31,841 bases of DNA from a virus (taxonomy: Duplodnaviria; Heunggongvirae; Uroviricota; Caudoviricetes). Below, one piece after another: positions 12,356-25,637 of this stretch. The notes beneath the pieces are model-generated. The model made no database searches, was not told the DNA's origin, and worked only from the letters and a program-made list of their open reading frames with translations. The position numbers and the translations under genes are program-made. How positions within the stretch are numbered: the stretch's first letter is position 1; every line of letters starts with the position of its first letter. The DNA lies in IMG/VR virus record IMGVR_UViG_2558860161_000007, positions 1 through 31,841 of that record. The stretch is one strand, 5' to 3'.

Positions 12356-12694
12356 TCAGCAGACGGCATATACACCATCAAATCCAACAGAAGGCACCTT
12401 CTTTGATGCTACTTCATTGCTACGACGCTGGATCACCTTTGCAATACTTTTTAAAATTGAAGGGGATGCATTGCGAACCTTTACCTGGCTCAAAACTTTG
12501 GTTACGCCGAATTTCACAACCAAAACACCAAAGATTTCATCAGAGTATGATTCTGAAATTGAATAAACGCCGCTCAAATCCAAATCAACAAAGTTCCCCT
12601 CATTGATGAGAACTTCAATCTTGTGCCGTTGGGGGATAGCCTGATTGCGCGAAGCCAGGTCACCCTCGGGCAACTTGTATGCAATTTTATTCAT
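12356..12694 (-). CDS. Small STAS-like (anti-sigma-factor-antagonist-like) protein; second gene of a two-gene cargo operon
   Basis: 112-aa ORF; segment FVDLDLSGVYSISESYSDEIFGVLVVKFG resembles the STAS/SpoIIAA-type core; AGGAGG Shine-Dalgarno inside the end of the upstream gene, and its start overlaps that gene's stop. Confidence 0.55.
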   Translation of the reverse strand: MNKIAYKLPEGDLASRNQAIPQRHKIEVLINEGNFVDLDLSGVYSISESYSDEIFGVLVVKFGVTKVLSQVKVRNASPSILKSIAKVIQRRSNEVASKKVPSVGFDGVYAVC

Positions 12695-13815
12695 TACTCT
12701 CCTCCTAACGCCCGCATGATTTCCATAAGTTGAGGGTCATTTTCTTCGTTATCGTAATCTTTATCGATCGCCAGTTCATGAATCTTAAAACGGCATGAAA
12801 TTGCCACACCTGACCACTCTTTATGCAATTCAGTGTAGCTCAATTGATCACCAACTGCCTCTAAGCATACATTTCCTGTAGCCAGTTGCAATTCCCCGTT
12901 GTATGTTTTTACCAATTTCATCAAGTGATATAGACCAAGCCCTTGATGATTATTCTCTTTTTCTTTAACTGCTACCGGAACACTTGCACCAAAGACGCTT
13001 CCACCCATATTGTCATACGGCAATTGCTGTGCCCAATCATCTATCAGATCAGCATGTTTAGATGAGTTACCTTCTTGTATACACCATGCTATGGCATCAC
13101 GATGATTGTCAATTCCTTTGATGCCTGCGCGCCTTAACTCTCTAAAAAACCCCATGCCACAGTCTGCAAGAGCAAACTCAAGATAATGCTCTTTTCCACC
13201 GGTTCTTGGTACTGCCCATTTTTGCGCAAAAGAAAAACCGGTATCCCTACCATGCGACCAGACGTTGTCGTGTAACTCACCAACCACACGTGTGAGATCG
13301 TTTATCCCTTGAGGATAAACCTTCCTCTCAGGGAATGTTAATTGCCTAATACAGCTATTTATACTTGAAGTAGCTGAATCGACTGCTTCAACATTCTTCA
13401 GAGCTGTCACAAGGCTGTAGTTGGTTCCGACATTAACTCTTTTTTGGTCATAACGGTCTTCCCCCCAAACAGCTTTGTGCAGACCAATGGCATTCATGTA
13501 ACCTGCGCCAGGTAAGTTGCAAGCATCTTCTGACAGCTTATTGTGATTTATATAAGCAGCCAAGACAGCAATATAGCCAGGGTGACAATGGTCATTCGGT
13601 AAAAGCAATTTCCCCTCACCACGATCATGAAATATAGCAATGCGGTGAATACCATCTTTTAGACCAAATCCCATTGACCAATCTCCACGAAAAATTTCCC
13701 CTATAATATCGCCTGGGAAAACTGAGCGCAAAGTAAAGCACTTAACCAAGCTTGCGCGCGCTCGTATCCCCGCCACGCCTGCCCGCTTTATGTAGTGGTT
13801 TTCATGCACCTGCAT
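12694..13815 (-). CDS. GHKL-superfamily (histidine-kinase-like) ATPase domain protein; first gene of the two-gene cargo operon
   Basis: 373-aa ORF with N-box-like VVGELHDNVWSHG, G1-like LADCGMGF and G2-like HQGLGLYHL in canonical order. The first ~27 codons overlap the cos-like site; an alternative start at Met48 (~13674) has a GGAG Shine-Dalgarno. The region is lower in GC than flanking phage genes. Confidence 0.6.
   Translation of the reverse strand: MQVHENHYIKRAGVAGIRARASLVKCFTLRSVFPGDIIGEIFRGDWSMGFGLKDGIHRIAIFHDRGEGKLLLPNDHCHPGYIAVLAAYINHNKLSEDACNLPGAGYMNAIGLHKAVWGEDRYDQKRVNVGTNYSLVTALKNVEAVDSATSSINSCIRQLTFPERKVYPQGINDLTRVVGELHDNVWSHGRDTGFSFAQKWAVPRTGGKEHYLEFALADCGMGFFRELRRAGIKGIDNHRDAIAWCIQEGNSSKHADLIDDWAQQLPYDNMGGSVFGASVPVAVKEKENNHQGLGLYHLMKLVKTYNGELQLATGNVCLEAVGDQLSYTELHKEWSGVAISCRFKIHELAIDKDYDNEENDPQLMEIMRALGGE
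13761..13800. other. cos-like site (cohesive-end region) of the P2/186-type prophage
   Basis: Reverse complement reads GGCGTGGCGGGGATACGAG, resembling the 19-nt P2/186 cohesive-end core as I recall it; the flank is homologous to two repeats in the satellite (24567..24640, 24878..24960). Confidence 0.5.
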
Positions 13816-21445: not shown

Positions 21446-21562
21446 TAAATGGCGGCATTTTGGCGGCAGAACACTAAAAACAAGTAAAACAAGCAAATAC
21501 AGACTAACACTAACACAATGATTTAAAATAAAAAAATATGATTTTGTTAGTATAAAAATGGT

Positions 21563-21607
21563 ATGTAGGAATTTCGGACGCGGGTTCAACTCCCGCCAGC
21601 TCCACCA
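21563..21607 (+). other. ssrA: Attachment-site core identical in character to the 3' end of tmRNA (ssrA), ending ...GGTTCAACTCCCGCCAGCTCCACCA
   Basis: The ~45-nt atgtaggaatttcggacgcgggttcaactcccgccagctccacca matches my recollection of the enterobacterial tmRNA 3' terminus; upstream is AT-rich phage DNA and the int stop, so only a 3' fragment is present. Confidence 0.65.
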
Positions 21608-21642
21608 AATAATGATCCGGATGTGTCCGGTGAAGTACAGAA

Positions 21643-21677
21643 AGCCCGCATGGCACAAGCCCTGCGGGCTTTTTTGT
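21643..21677 (+). terminator. Rho-independent terminator (likely the native ssrA terminator)
   Basis: Perfect stem agcccgca / tgcgggct with a 12-nt loop, followed by TTTTTTG. Confidence 0.6.
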
Positions 21678-21791: not shown

Positions 21792-22991
21792 GTGGCACGG
21801 ACAACTCGCCCCCTAACCAACACCGAAGTTCTGCGCGCGAAAGCGTTAGAGAAGGATCTAACGCTGCATGATGGTGATGGGCTTTTCCTGATAGTGAAAA
21901 CTAGCGGCAAGAAACTCTGGCGCTTTCGCTATCAACGCCCAGCAACAAAACAACGGACTATGATGGGACTTGGTGCTTTTCCTGCCCTTTCTCTTGCTGA
22001 TGCCCGAGGGTTAAGAGCAGATTACCTTGCCCTATTAGCCAACGGAATCGACCCGCAAATTCAAGCTGAAGTTGCAGAGGAACAGCAGCAAATCGCTCTG
22101 GACAGTATTTTTTCGACGGTCGCCGCTAACTGGTTCCAGCTCAAAAGCAAAAGCGTTACCCCTGATTACGCTAAAGATATATGGCGTTCACTGGAAAAAG
22201 ACGTATTTCCAGCTATCGGTGAGACCCCTGTCCAGCAAATCAAAGCCCGAACACTGGTTGAAGCCCTTGAACCGATCAAAGCACGTGGGGCGCTGGAGAC
22301 AGTTCGTAGACTGGTACAGCGTATCAACGAAATAATGATTTATGCGGTTAACACTGGCTTGATTGATGCCAACCCCGCATCAGGTATTGGTATGGCTTTT
22401 GAGAAACCCAAAAAGCAAAACATGCCGACGTTGCGACCAGAAGAATTGCCTAAGCTGATGCGTTCGCTAGTCATGTCAAATCTATCTGTTCCGACTCGCT
22501 GTCTTATTGAGTGGCAACTCCTGACGCTCGTGCGCCCTTCTGAGGCTTCAGGTGCTCGATGGGCTGAGATCGATCTCAATGCCAAACTCTGGACAATTCC
22601 AGCCGAACGAATGAAAGCTAAACGTGAACATATAGTACCTCTATCTACACAGGCGTTAGAGATTCTAGAAGTGATGAAGCCAATCAGTGCTCATCGCGAA
22701 CATGTTTTTCCGAGCAGGAACGACCCCAAAAAATCAATGAACAGCCAAACGGCAAACGCTGCCTTAAAACGCATAGGCTATGGAGGTAAGCTTGTTGCTC
22801 ATGGTCTACGTTCTATAGCGAGTACAGCTCTTAATGAAAATGGTTTTAATCCAGATGTAATTGAAGCAGCATTAGCACATTCGGATAAGAATGAAGTAAG
22901 ACGTGCATATAATCGTTCTACCTATTTAGAACAACGTCATGAGTTAATGAATTGGTGGGGTTGTAAAGTTTGCCCTACCAATTCATTATAA
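21792..22991 (+). CDS. int: Tyrosine integrase (P4/CP4-57 family) of the satellite element
   Basis: 399-aa ORF (GTG start); N-terminal arm-binding-type region (GDGLFLIV...KLWRFRY) and C-terminal catalytic region (AHGLRS...ALAHSDKNEVRRAYNRSTY). Confidence 0.9.
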   Translation: MARTTRPLTNTEVLRAKALEKDLTLHDGDGLFLIVKTSGKKLWRFRYQRPATKQRTMMGLGAFPALSLADARGLRADYLALLANGIDPQIQAEVAEEQQQIALDSIFSTVAANWFQLKSKSVTPDYAKDIWRSLEKDVFPAIGETPVQQIKARTLVEALEPIKARGALETVRRLVQRINEIMIYAVNTGLIDANPASGIGMAFEKPKKQNMPTLRPEELPKLMRSLVMSNLSVPTRCLIEWQLLTLVRPSEASGARWAEIDLNAKLWTIPAERMKAKREHIVPLSTQALEILEVMKPISAHREHVFPSRNDPKKSMNSQTANAALKRIGYGGKLVAHGLRSIASTALNENGFNPDVIEAALAHSDKNEVRRAYNRSTYLEQRHELMNWWGCKVCPTNSL

Positions 22992-23002
22992 GATAAAACA
23001 GA

Positions 23003-24421
23003 TCATACTTTACCGGGGTATGTTTTAAACATACTCCTTAATACGTCAAATGTCTGTTCACCTATGATTGAAAATTCTTTAATCATTTCCATTAAGTTAT
23101 TTCGGCTAATCAAGAAAATATACAAACCTTGATCTTTCGATATTTCTTTCACTCTATCAAGATACTTTTCCTCGGCAGAATTTTCGCAGAATATTAAACC
23201 TATCTTAGAATTACATTCTTCGACTTTTCTAAGTGTAGTATAAATATGTTCCTCGTTCAATTTATGCTGAGGATCAATGACATTTACAACTATCAACTCT
23301 GAAATAATGTTGTACACTGAAAAATCGAAAAAGAAACCTTTCTTAGCCTCATTAATTAATGAAAAGAGGCAGCACTGTTCATCCTCACTTATTAATTTGG
23401 GGTAAAACAAGCTAGGATAGAAGATTGAAATCAATATTTTCTTGTATGCTTTAGTGTAATTACTAAAGTCGTTGTTTTTAATTGATAAATCAATATCTTT
23501 CATTAGATCTTTTATGGGGAGAATTACAGGATCTTCATCCTTATCAAAATCACTATGCGCTAGAGGATTCGGAGGATTAATCTCCAGCTCTTTTTTATAT
23601 TCTTTCAAGGTGTTAGGGTATTTTACGAGCTGAGACTCGATAAATCCCTTAGTCTGACCATACTCATCAATGATACTTGTTGTGGTAACAATCCGCTCCC
23701 CTTTAAGCACTTTAACTAATGCCGAGCCAGAGCTTATCAATTCCTTTTTCATTTCCGGAATAATATGCCTCCGATATAAATCCCTATGTGAATAGATTAT
23801 CTCTTCACGTGCAAGTATCTTAGGAATAAGGATAATCTCCTCGCCTTCATAAACAGGGAGATGAAAACGATTTTTATGCCATTTACTACTAACCTTATCC
23901 CACGTTTTGACTTCTGAAACCTCTTTAGTCTCAATGCCGTAAAATATACAAATATCCTTTGTATATTCTATAAAAAAACCTTTGAGAATATTACAAACTG
24001 AATCCGATATTCGGTCAGAACCAATACCTGGGATAGTCAGAGCTGTATCTTCTAGATCAGTTAATATTCCTGATTTTGCAGCCTGACTACTCTTTAGAGA
24101 ATCCAAAATATCTTCAGCAGTTTTTTCACCAAGAGCAGTTCCGGATGATTCTTTTGTTGAATATCCTAAATGAAAGGCATTGGTCTCTCTTAGTGATGAC
24201 AATAAATAAGCAGCTTTTTTAAAATTATTATTCTTTATAGACGCCATTATTTCTGTAAAATAGTCTTGTAACGCGTAAACTAAATCCTGCCCCCATTGGG
24301 ATTTTAAAACCTTTATAGATGTTGGATCTAAAAAAAACCTTAAATCAGTATGCAGAGGAATATCCAAAAAATCTAACGCTACTTGTCTGCCTTCAACTCC
24401 AAAAGCCTCTGAAAACCTCAT
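23003..24421 (-). CDS. Hypothetical AT-rich cargo protein (~472 aa) in the satellite int-cos hotspot
   Basis: ORF 23003..24448; likely start is the ATG at ~24421 with a GGAG Shine-Dalgarno. GC is markedly lower than its neighbours, it is convergent with int, and I recognise no domain by eye. Confidence 0.55.
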   Translation of the reverse strand: MRFSEAFGVEGRQVALDFLDIPLHTDLRFFLDPTSIKVLKSQWGQDLVYALQDYFTEIMASIKNNNFKKAAYLLSSLRETNAFHLGYSTKESSGTALGEKTAEDILDSLKSSQAAKSGILTDLEDTALTIPGIGSDRISDSVCNILKGFFIEYTKDICIFYGIETKEVSEVKTWDKVSSKWHKNRFHLPVYEGEEIILIPKILAREEIIYSHRDLYRRHIIPEMKKELISSGSALVKVLKGERIVTTTSIIDEYGQTKGFIESQLVKYPNTLKEYKKELEINPPNPLAHSDFDKDEDPVILPIKDLMKDIDLSIKNNDFSNYTKAYKKILISIFYPSLFYPKLISEDEQCCLFSLINEAKKGFFFDFSVYNIISELIVVNVIDPQHKLNEEHIYTTLRKVEECNSKIGLIFCENSAEEKYLDRVKEISKDQGLYIFLISRNNLMEMIKEFSIIGEQTFDVLRSMFKTYPGKV

Positions 24422-24566
24422 GTAACACTCCTTTACAATAATCAACATAAAAACAAGAGCATTCTTATTTTTATAGCAAAGGTGGTTTAATCACAAGATC
24501 TTATGAATTGAGCAACAATAATTATCCCTATTTTTTGAAGCTGACGAACATTTCACGTTGCGTACA

Positions 24567-24640
24567 GAGCTTTCCCCGCCTCGCCTGCACGCCTCGTGGG
24601 TCTGTTTTAATGCAGTTGCTTTGCGAGGCTCAGGCTGCCA
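24567..24640. repeat. cos-like repeat copy 1 (P2-type variant)
   Basis: Reverse complement reads GGCGAGGCGGGGAAAGCTC; homologous to copy 2 and to the helper cos-like region. Confidence 0.5.
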
Positions 24641-24877
24641 CAGACTCGAATACGTCAAGGGAATAGCAGCTTTAGAAGCGACGTAATGAACGCCAGAATG
24701 ACTAGTTTCCTCCACCGCCGGGCGGCCTTTTCTTGCACTTCTCCTGACCACCTCAGGGCTCTCCACGCCCTCGAACAGCACCGCACCACCCACCGACACT
24801 CCCGAGAACCCGCGCAGTACAGCGACGCACTCAGGCCGCGAAATTAAATATAATTAAATACTTTACCGCTGGCGCGC

Positions 24878-24960
24878 AATGCTCTCCCCGCCACGCCTGC
24901 CCGCTTCCCGGGGCGCTTTTAATGCAGGTGCATGAAGAGGCTCAGGCCGCGCCAGTGCTG
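24878..24960. repeat. cos-like repeat copy 2 (variant closest to the resident helper)
   Basis: Reverse complement reads GGCGTGGCGGGGAGAGCAT; the flank (ctgcccgctt...ttttaatgcaggtgcatga) aligns with the helper region at 13761..13815. Confidence 0.5.
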
Positions 24961-25061: not shown

Positions 25062-25637
25062 TTATGCGGATTTTTTGCGGGTCTGCGCGGCCTGTCGGCG
25101 CATGAAAATCTGACTCTGTTCAGGCGTATATTTTGCCCGGTTGTCGTCTCTCGATGCTCTGTCAGGCCGGAAACCGATGGTTGTCAGAATGTCGCGATCA
25201 TCCTCTGCGTAATCAATATTTCCTCCGCGGGTTACATAAACGGACAGCGCTTCGCGAACACTGGCGGCCGCCCGGTCGAGAGCACGTTCTCTGACAATGT
25301 CAGGTTGTTCGCTGAGATGCATTAATTCCGGTGCCAGTGCGGCGGCCAGCGCGTCGCCGCTTACCTGCATAAAGGCGTGGAGCTGACACCGGATACTGAT
25401 ACGCTGCACGGCCTCATGTGACCGGATGTACTGCCCGGCCGACTGATTTACCGCCCATTTTTTCAGGTCAATATCATCCCGCAGCGCCTGTGCGGCCTCC
25501 GGTTCATAACGGGTGCAGGTCAGCTCCAGCTCCTTCAGCGCCATTTCTGCCCGCGCCAGTGCTGACTTGCTGCTCATCCAGTCCGATTTATTCTTCTGAC
25601 AGGTTTCAAAGGCCTGTTCCAGTAGTGCTCGTGCCAT
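25062..25637 (-). CDS. psu: Psu-like polarity suppression / capsid decoration protein
   Basis: 191-aa ORF; conserved AGQYIRSHEAVQ.ISIR and ILTTIGFRPD segments, as I recall for P4 Psu (190 aa). Confidence 0.8.
   Translation of the reverse strand: MARALLEQAFETCQKNKSDWMSSKSALARAEMALKELELTCTRYEPEAAQALRDDIDLKKWAVNQSAGQYIRSHEAVQRISIRCQLHAFMQVSGDALAAALAPELMHLSEQPDIVRERALDRAAASVREALSVYVTRGGNIDYAEDDRDILTTIGFRPDRASRDDNRAKYTPEQSQIFMRRQAAQTRKKSA

What the first reader, a model, noticed from the sequence alone, without database searches (positions are those of the whole stretch)
23003..24448. AT-rich ~472-aa orphan gene in the satellite int-cos hotspot
Seen in sequence: a single large ORF, convergent with the P4-type integrase, lies directly between int and the cos-like repeats; its GC is conspicuously lower than everything around it and it has a good Shine-Dalgarno at the Met at ~24421. 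Established knowledge: the segment between int and cos/psu in P4-like satellites is a variable hotspot that commonly carries anti-phage genes. Inference: a horizontally acquired single-gene effector, possibly abortive-infection type. I see no recognisable catalytic motif by eye.
Basis: partly seen in the sequence, partly recalled or inferred. Interest (0 to 1): 0.75.

Follow-up and report, generated by a model that had tools for sequence, protein, structure and literature searches.

The report
Nuclease-dead defence-family gene in P4 satellite
The AT-rich gene is real and sits in the known anti-phage cargo slot of a P4-like satellite, but it is not an orphan: it belongs to a large uncharacterised family (DUF8370 / PADLOC candidate PDC-M36A), in a branch whose restriction-endonuclease-like domain has lost every catalytic residue yet is still kept by selection.

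Summary
A 472-aa gene (ATG 24421, stop 23003-23005, minus strand) has an AAGGAG ribosome-binding site. Its GC is 0.34, against 0.52 for the window. It converges on a P4-type integrase and lies between int and cos/psu.

"Orphan" is wrong. The identical protein occurs in hundreds of Salmonella assemblies. Relatives 96% identical occur in Klebsiella. The family is Pfam DUF8370 and PADLOC candidate PDC-M36A, with 5,136 clusters at 50% identity.

The AlphaFold model (pLDDT 90) shows two parts. The N-terminal domain of about 296 aa has no solved structural relative and carries family-invariant D26, D32, E79, D136, S139 and D140. The C-terminal domain has a restriction-endonuclease (PD-(D/E)xK, Mrr-like) fold.

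In 153 relatives the Mrr signature (G-R…D…ExK…Q…D) is 86-100% conserved. In this protein and its whole Enterobacterales clade (at least 46% identity) all seven positions are replaced and vary freely. Both domains are nevertheless under purifying selection (dN/dS 0.10-0.23).

Five of six clade members examined sit in P4 int-psu hotspots. A satellite with a 97%-identical backbone carries different cargo.

Best reading: a hotspot-borne anti-phage factor that no longer cuts DNA through its Mrr-like site and works through the conserved N-terminal domain. No member of the family has been tested.

The parts
23003..24421 (-). Coding sequence of the 472-aa DUF8370-family protein (stop codon 23003-23005)
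   Evidence: ORF list. Homologs all start at this Met. The exact protein is in public assemblies with a precomputed PF28123 DUF8370 hit. dN/dS is 0.14-0.17.
24428..24433 (-). Shine-Dalgarno AAGGAG, 6 nt upstream of the ATG
   Evidence: Read directly from the sequence.
24470..24478 (-). Possible extended -10 promoter element, TGcTATAAA (inference only)
   Evidence: Read from the sequence. The consensus scanner, which requires a -35 hexamer, did not list it.
23534..24421 (-). N-terminal domain (aa 1-296; conserved DUF8370 core about aa 1-205). Family-invariant residues: D26 (24344-24346), D32 (24326-24328), E79 (24185-24187), D136 (24014-24016), S139 (24005-24007), D140 (24002-24004), plus Y153, T154, W181 and P200
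23006..23533 (-). C-terminal PD-(D/E)xK (Mrr-like restriction endonuclease) fold with a dead active site: L352 (23366-23368), N380 (23282-23284) and I382 (23276-23278) stand where relatives have D, E and K
24560..24643 (.). Distal cos-like repeat just upstream of the gene (75% identical to the conserved cos region)
   Evidence: Repeat finder. Alignment with other satellites.
24872..24955 (.). Proximal cos-like repeat, part of the conserved satellite backbone next to psu
   Evidence: E. coli UTME-7 homology starts at about 24851.
21792..22991 (+). P4-type tyrosine integrase, convergent with the gene; one border of the hotspot
   Evidence: PHROG integrase, E 2e-70. Arm-DNA-bind_3, Phage_int_M and Phage_integrase domains in the identical loci.
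25062..25637 (-). psu (polarity suppression protein); the other border of the hotspot
   Evidence: phrog_6366, E 4e-62. Pfam Psu in the identical loci.

Best explanation
The gene is exchangeable cargo in the int-cos/psu defence hotspot of a P4-like satellite. The satellite sits in tandem with a P2/186-like prophage at an ssrA remnant, and the source is most likely Salmonella enterica.

The protein belongs to the DUF8370 / PDC-M36A-like family. The usual design of that family is a conserved N-terminal domain of unknown fold fused to a C-terminal Mrr-type PD-(D/E)xK nuclease. This protein belongs to an Enterobacterales, satellite-borne clade in which the nuclease fold is kept but all seven signature residues are gone. 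It therefore cannot cleave DNA through the canonical site.

Shown: the fold, the loss of the catalytic residues, purifying selection on both domains, the hotspot location with variable cargo, and the defence-island context of relatives.

Inferred: it still serves as an anti-phage or inter-element competition factor. Its activity would reside in the N-terminal domain. That domain holds the most conserved positions of the whole family: an invariant acidic cluster (D26, D32, E79, D136, D140), S139, and a glycine-rich loop at 94-98. This pattern suggests a metal-dependent catalytic or ligand-binding site acting on nucleic acid or nucleotides. The ex-nuclease domain would then act as a structural, oligomerisation or DNA-binding scaffold.
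For: Location and variability of the slot: and PMC9122126. Unknown P4-hotspot genes often protect against phage: 6 of 8 did in a 2026 preprint.

Family assignment: PADLOC PDC-M36A E 2.8e-32, precomputed PF28123 DUF8370 on the identical protein, and 5,136 cluster representatives.

Relatives in defence settings: PDC-M36 was defined from genes embedded in BREX, DISARM or type I RM loci. A Bacillus plasmid homolog lies between Gabija-like genes (TOPRIM plus UvrD) and McrBC. One relative lies next to an OLD/GajA-like ATPase. Others lie in integrase islands.

Dead active site: D352, E380 and K382 are present in 153 of 198 sequences. The window clade (45 sequences, at least 46% identical) has L/S/R/V/C/K at 352, N/E/S/K/Y at 380 and I/V/L at 382. 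G347, R348, Q395 and D442 are also lost.

Selection: dN/dS is 0.10-0.14 for the N-terminal part and 0.16-0.23 for the C-terminal part. All N-terminal invariant residues are retained in the clade.

Clade contexts: five of six are P4 hotspots.
Against: No experiment exists for any family member, and PDC systems are explicitly untested candidates. The activity of the N-terminal domain is unknown: there is no structural or sequence relative. An invariant acidic cluster is an argument, not proof, of catalysis. Loss of the only recognisable effector site could instead mean loss of defence function and a switch to another role. PD-(D/E)xK enzymes are known to relocate catalytic residues (established knowledge); clade-specific K327, K328 and E358 were not excluded structurally because model coordinates could not be inspected.
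Confidence: 0.5

Rival explanations
1. It is an active Mrr-like / type IV restriction-type nuclease that cuts incoming phage DNA. This is the naive reading of the fold match and of the UniRef name of a relative.
Against: All seven Mrr signature positions are substituted: L352, N380 and I382 in place of D, E and K. These positions vary freely within the clade, so they are not under constraint. The window protein has no Pfam nuclease hit.
Confidence: 0.07
2. It is a pseudo-nuclease used as a decoy or dominant-negative partner. The satellite-encoded dead copy would co-assemble with, or compete against, intact DUF8370 nucleases of the host or of rival elements. Alternatively it would occupy their DNA target. 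Either way it would protect satellite or helper DNA, so the gene would be counter-defence or self-protection rather than defence.
For: The dead active site coexists with purifying selection on the fold. Intact sister proteins (36-38% identical) exist in enterobacterial satellite-like elements, for example E. coli TK3887. The N-terminal domain, a possible interaction or targeting module, is highly conserved between dead and intact forms.
Against: No co-occurrence data. Intact relatives are very rare in the enterobacterial genomes checked: 1 of 5,426 complete E. coli genomes. The slot is known for defence cargo (PMC9122126).
Confidence: 0.17
3. It is a sensor-and-blocker: the protein still recognises phage DNA or a DNA structure and inhibits replication or packaging by binding alone, without any catalysis.
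Confidence: 0.15
4. It is a decaying relic or has a non-defence satellite function such as packaging or cos handling.
For: The catalytic residues are lost. A second cos-like repeat lies immediately upstream of the gene.
Against: Full-length intact ORFs occur across genera, with dN/dS 0.10-0.23 in both domains. The exact sequence is present in hundreds of assemblies. Satellites with the same backbone lack it, so it is not a core function. One clade member lies in a non-P4 island.
Confidence: 0.08

Closest known systems
PADLOC candidate PDC-M36 (PDC-M36A plus two PDC-M36B genes), from Payne et al., guilt-by-embedding (bioRxiv 10.1101/2024.01.29.577857)
   Same: The N-terminal domain (aa 11-266) matches the PDC-M36A model at E 2.8e-32. 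The two-domain architecture and length (about 460-480 aa) are the same. Both occur in mobile or defence contexts.
   Different: Only 23-25% identical to a true PDC-M36A (P0043). There are no PDC-M36B partner genes. The C-terminal half does not match the model. The catalytic D/ExK is present in PDC-M36A and absent here. PDC-M36 itself is an untested candidate.
Intact solo DUF8370 nucleases of enterobacterial satellites (for example E. coli TK3887 WP_021574992.1, and P0032-P0036)
   Same: 36-38% identical over the full length. Both are solo genes at the edge of satellite-like elements, with the same N-terminal invariant residues.
   Different: They keep GR…D…ExK…Q…D ('GRKRIDITY…VECKNY…DQLSGRF'). 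The window protein has lost all of these residues.
Mrr / type IV and type IIS restriction-endonuclease catalytic domains (R.BspD6I, FokI cleavage domain, EcoT38I, AF1548)
   Different: Sequence identity is 6-8%. There is no catalytic triad, no Pfam Mrr_cat hit, and the N-terminal domain is different and novel.
ERCC1-type pseudo-nucleases (from established knowledge, not tested here)
   Same: Conceptual analogy only: a nuclease fold without catalytic residues, kept under selection as a binding or scaffold module next to a helical DNA-binding-like region.
   Different: No homology was shown. The domain order and biological context differ.

Membership tests
P4-like satellite int-psu/cos defence-hotspot cargo (Rousset et al. 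2022, PMC9122126) | Lies between psu (+cos) and int of a P4-like element | tested here: met
   int 21792-22991, gene 23003-24421, cos-like repeats, psu 25062-25637, delta, sid, alpA and alpha primase.
P4-like satellite int-psu/cos defence-hotspot cargo (Rousset et al. 2022, PMC9122126) | Cargo differs between satellites with a near-identical backbone | tested here: met
   E. coli UTME-7 has a 97.2%-identical psu-delta-sid region but carries a HEPN gene plus a hypothetical gene instead; homology ends at window ~24851.
P4-like satellite int-psu/cos defence-hotspot cargo (Rousset et al. 2022, PMC9122126) | Confers phage resistance when expressed | not testable with these tools
   No experimental data were found for this family.
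Pfam DUF8370 (PF28123) | Match to the family model | tested here: met
   The local Pfam copy lacks the model. The precomputed PF28123 hit is recorded on the identical protein in L005-L008 and on all 55 homologs.
Pfam DUF8370 (PF28123) | Family-invariant N-terminal residues (D26, D32-P33, E79, G94, D136, S139, D140, T154, P200) | tested here: met
   All are present in the window protein and in its clade.
PADLOC PDC-M36 candidate system | PDC-M36A protein | tested here: inconclusive
   The HMM hit (E 2.8e-32) covers only aa 11-266 of 472. A true member (P0043) scores 1e-213 over its full length.
PADLOC PDC-M36 candidate system | Adjacent PDC-M36B small genes (cassette FAM_01399>>FAM_00303>>FAM_00303) | tested here: not met
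   The gene's stop is 11 nt from the int stop. tblastn of both B proteins against the window finds nothing with E<1.
Mrr-like / PD-(D/E)xK restriction endonuclease | alpha-beta-beta-beta-alpha-beta nuclease fold | tested here: met
Mrr-like / PD-(D/E)xK restriction endonuclease | Catalytic D…(D/E)xK (plus the G-R and Q of the Mrr signature) | tested here: not met
   L352, N380, I382, D347, E348, T395 and N442 stand where 153 relatives have D, E, K, G, R, Q and D at 86-100%.
Tai (tail assembly inhibition) proteins of phages, PICIs and P4 hotspots (PMC11364771) | Homology to TaiEcA (phi80 orf63) | tested here: not met
   hhalign probability 0.1%. tblastn against 50,697 phage records found no match. 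TaiEcA is 204 aa.
(HhH)2 DNA-binding domain | Conserved G-h-G hairpins between helix pairs | tested here: inconclusive

The most novel reading that the evidence does not exclude
The DUF8370 N-terminal domain is a new kind of catalytic or ligand-sensing immune module that suffices for function without any nuclease. Alternatively, the satellite clade is a naturally evolved pseudo-nuclease that neutralises or redirects intact DUF8370 nucleases, which would be counter-defence carried in a 'defence' hotspot. Either reading would define a new mechanism and a new fold in phage-satellite-host conflict.
Probability: 0.2. Interest if true: 0.75.

Novelty: new variant of a known kind. Interest (0 to 1): 0.5.

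Why it matters
P4 and P2 hotspots are a proven source of new immune systems. This gene stands for a very large family (5,136 clusters at 50% identity) that is catalogued but entirely uncharacterised.

The family offers a natural experiment. Most members keep a textbook Mrr-type nuclease site. One satellite-borne enterobacterial clade has erased it, yet keeps the whole protein under purifying selection.

That contrast points to the N-terminal domain as the functional core. The domain has no solved relative and carries an invariant acidic cluster. It gives a clean way to test what the domain does by comparing dead and intact paralogs with point mutants.

If the dead form still protects, it defines a non-nucleolytic mechanism. 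If it antagonises intact relatives, then defence hotspots also carry counter-defence.

Tried and rejected
- **Orphan status:** rejected. There are 55 word-indexed homologs and 5,136 representatives, and the exact protein is in hundreds of assemblies.
- **Local family libraries:** local Pfam and NCBIfam gave nothing useful. PHROGs gave only 'unknown function' families.
- **Literature:** searches for PDC-M36, PF28123 and DUF8370 found no paper. The P4-hotspot preprint and its supplements do not mention PDC-M36.
- **E. coli and phages:** no megablast match in E. coli genomes. The distant search found one intact relative only. There was no tblastn match in 50,697 phage records.
- **Tai family:** rejected.
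- **HhH reading:** downgraded to a lead, because the G-h-G hairpin is not conserved.
- **Stand-alone N-terminal domain proteins:** most look like frameshifted or truncated products, so they were not used as evidence.
- **'SIR2-like' UniRef name on P0031:** no SIR2 Pfam hit in any member scanned, so it was ignored.
- **afdb50 fold library:** unavailable.
- **Model coordinates:** could not be inspected, so spatial clustering of the invariant acidic residues is untested.

Full report

Yes. The longest ORF is 23003..24448 on the minus strand, 481 aa. Every homolog begins with the Met at 24421 (MRFSE…). That Met is preceded by AAGGAG at 24428-24433, with a 6-nt spacer. The product is therefore 472 aa.

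- GC is 0.30-0.36 across the gene and 0.43-0.55 in the flanks.
- Gene GC is 0.336 and GC3 0.298. The satellite core genes psu, sid and alpha have GC3 0.59-0.74, int has 0.395, and the window GC is 0.524.
- At this composition an open frame of 481 codons has a chance probability of about 2.5e-18.
- dN/dS against three orthologs is 0.14-0.17.
- The stop codon lies 11 nt from the stop of a convergent integrase (21792-22991).
- On the other side lie two cos-like 84-nt repeats, then psu, delta, sid, alpA and the alpha primase. This is a P4-like satellite.
- A TGcTATAAA element at 24470-24478 could be an extended -10 promoter. That is inference from the sequence only; the consensus scan did not list it.

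**2. Where it sits**

Window 1..~21500 is a P2/186-like prophage. It has the terminase, portal, gpA, Dam methylase, DinI, CI and int genes. A tmRNA 3' fragment at 21519-21607 separates it from the satellite.

In other assemblies the same satellite lies next to smpB/ssrA (L007, L018, L010). The exact protein is recorded from Salmonella enterica of several serovars. Variants 96% identical come from Klebsiella, and the same 90% cluster includes Citrobacter fragments. It is indexed in 396 blocks of the assembly collection.

The slot is variable. E. coli UTME-7 shares a 97.2%-identical psu-delta-sid backbone, but homology stops at window ~24851 and the cargo is a HEPN protein plus a hypothetical protein. 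The psu-int interval is the published P4 anti-phage hotspot (PMC9122126). In a 2026 preprint, 6 of 8 randomly chosen unknown P4 cargo loci protected against phages.

**3. It is not an orphan**

- PADLOC matches candidate PDC-M36A at E 2.8e-32, covering aa 11-266 only.
- PHROGs has a full-length family of unknown function.
- All 55 word-indexed homologs carry the precomputed Pfam hit PF28123, named DUF8370 in the contig tables. The more distant ones also carry PF28130, DUF8371.
- An exhaustive profile search finds 5,136 representatives of 50%-identity clusters at E≤1e-3, and 1,285 at E≤1e-30. The 150 best listed are mostly 470-500 aa.
- Plasmid homologs occur in Bacillus, Acinetobacter, Rhodococcus and cyanobacteria.

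PDC systems are untested candidates. They were chosen because they are embedded in BREX, DISARM or type I RM loci. PDC-M36 is a three-gene cassette. A true example (L011) has a 457-aa A protein followed by two small B paralogs. The window has no B gene.

Other relatives also lie in defence or mobile contexts:
- between Gabija-like genes and McrBC on a Bacillus plasmid;
- next to an OLD/GajA-like ATPase;
- next to a PDC-S02 nuclease;
- in integrase islands.

**4. Anatomy**

AlphaFold2 with 41 homologs gives pLDDT 89.9 and pTM 0.90.

The secondary-structure order of the C-terminal domain fits the PD-(D/E)xK topology:
- α 319-334
- β 338-346
- β 350-357
- β 376-382
- α 390-402
- β 407-411

**5. 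The nuclease site is dead in this clade**

I aligned 198 family members. Counts at the three catalytic positions are:

| Position (window numbering) | Residue in most relatives | Count | Window protein |
|---|---|---|---|
| 352 | D | 153 of 198 | L |
| 380 | E | 157 of 198 | N |
| 382 | K | 154 of 198 | I |

The 153 sequences with D-E-K also share G347 (91%), R348 (86%), Q395 (100%) and D442 (88%), which is an Mrr-type signature.

Forty-five sequences lack the triad. Forty-two of them form one clade with the window protein, at least 46% identical to it. All of that clade lack the triad, and these positions vary freely within it (L/S/V/C/R/K at 352; N/E/S/K/Y at 380; I/V/L at 382). The nearest sisters (36-38% identical), including a 477-aa protein in a satellite-like element of E. 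coli TK3887, keep 'GRKRIDITY…VECKNY…DQLSGRF'. The other three sequences without the full triad are distant and partial exceptions.

The domain is nevertheless not decaying. dN/dS for aa 297-472 is 0.16-0.23, and for aa 1-296 it is 0.10-0.14.

Five of six clade members examined lie in P4 int-psu hotspots (window, L001, L014, L015, L018). One lies next to an integrase in a different island (L017).

**6. The conserved core is N-terminal**

Across the family the most conserved positions are S4, D20, D26, D32-P33, F55, E79, L85-G86, G94, D136, S139, D140, Y153-T154, W181, L198 and P200. D136, S139, T154 and P200 are invariant in an 87-sequence sample of 15% mean column identity. All are retained in the nuclease-dead clade.

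A glycine-rich loop (G94-x-G-x-G98 in most relatives) is the only low-confidence segment of the model. The window protein has a 'PGIG' hairpin between two helices, followed by the invariant DRISD. That G-h-G is not conserved in the family, so a helix-hairpin-helix reading remains a lead only. Both halves of the protein are acidic, pI 5.3-5.5.

**7. Most likely mechanism**

Shown:
- hotspot cargo;
- membership of a defence-associated family;
- nuclease fold without catalytic residues;
- selection on both domains;
- an intact N-terminal core.

Inferred:
- The protein still works as an anti-phage or inter-element competition factor. It would act through the N-terminal domain. The invariant acidic cluster and glycine loop of that domain look more like a metal-dependent catalytic or ligand-binding site than like a fast-evolving sensor.
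- The ex-nuclease domain would serve as a scaffold.

I put this reading at about 0.5.

Rivals:
- a decoy or dominant-negative pseudo-nuclease acting against intact relatives (0.17);
- a non-catalytic DNA binder and blocker (0.15);
- a relic or satellite housekeeping function (0.08);
- an active Mrr-type nuclease (0.07).

**8. Comparison with known systems and novelty**

The gene works in the setting of P4 hotspot cargo, and it is a member of DUF8370. It is not a PDC-M36 system, because it has no B genes and only the N-terminal half matches the A model. It is not a functional member of the Mrr / PD-(D/E)xK nucleases, because the catalytic motif was tested and not met. It is unrelated to Tai.

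The sequence itself is already in public databases as 'hypothetical protein'. What is new is the recognition of a nuclease-dead, selection-maintained, satellite-borne clade within an uncharacterised defence-candidate family. I rate it a new variant of a known kind, of moderate interest (0.5).

**9. Limits**

- There are no experiments for any family member.
- Model coordinates could not be inspected, so clustering of the invariant residues and possible relocated catalytic residues (clade-specific K327, K328 and E358) remain untested.
- The AFDB fold library was unavailable.
- Apparent stand-alone N-terminal proteins look like frameshifted or truncated products and were not used as evidence.

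Noticed in passing
window 12356-13815 (-): The adjacent P2/186-like prophage has its own low-GC cargo (GC 0.42-0.48) in the published gpQ-gpA hotspot. It consists of a 373-aa ORF (12694-13815; no Pfam or PADLOC hit, phrog_3364 unknown) and a 112-aa ORF (12356-12694) with a DUF4325 STAS-like domain (E 1.8e-9) and a weak DrmA hit. It may be a two-gene defence candidate.
   Followed up: partly
window 24560-24643 and 24872-24955: Two cos-like 84-nt direct repeats, 75% identical and 312 nt apart. The psu-proximal copy is the conserved satellite cos region. The distal copy lies just upstream of the cargo gene and is present in degenerate form in the 83%-identical ortholog locus L014. This suggests the cassette was acquired together with a cos segment.
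   Followed up: partly
window 21519-21675: A tmRNA 3' fragment (Rfam E 3e-10) and an IsrM-like terminator stem lie between the P2-like int and the P4 int. ARAGORN finds no complete tmRNA. This fits a tandem prophage-plus-satellite array at ssrA.
   Followed up: partly
L006 12986-13981, L008 12963-14189, L005 12940-15634: In other assemblies with the identical satellite, the junction between the satellite int and the neighbouring prophage carries different extra genes: an HNH_2 protein, a 408-aa unknown protein, or an AAA_15 ATPase plus a D12 methyltransferase. The window has only about 350 bp there.
   Followed up: no
L019 4668-6101 (E. coli TK3887): An intact-nuclease relative (477 aa, 36% identical) lies at the end of a different satellite-like element that encodes Ogr/Delta, an Icd-like protein and a DUF927 primase. 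It is the only hit in 5,426 complete E. coli genomes.
   Followed up: partly
L011 6383-7163: The two PDC-M36B proteins (127 and 129 aa) are paralogs. The second ends in a strongly acidic tail (…EDEDEVEYEDEDEDLDEG). They may be DNA-mimic-like regulators of the A nuclease.
   Followed up: no
protein P0228 (1144 aa): One family representative carries about 690 extra C-terminal residues with a PNP_UDP_1 phosphorylase domain at aa 800-943. This could be a fusion with a second effector or a gene-calling artefact.
   Followed up: no
L018 3534-4217 (Serratia fonticola): In this P4-like satellite no psu gene is called in the locus. An unannotated 227-aa gene on the opposite strand lies where psu would be, next to the DUF8370 gene.
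   Followed up: no
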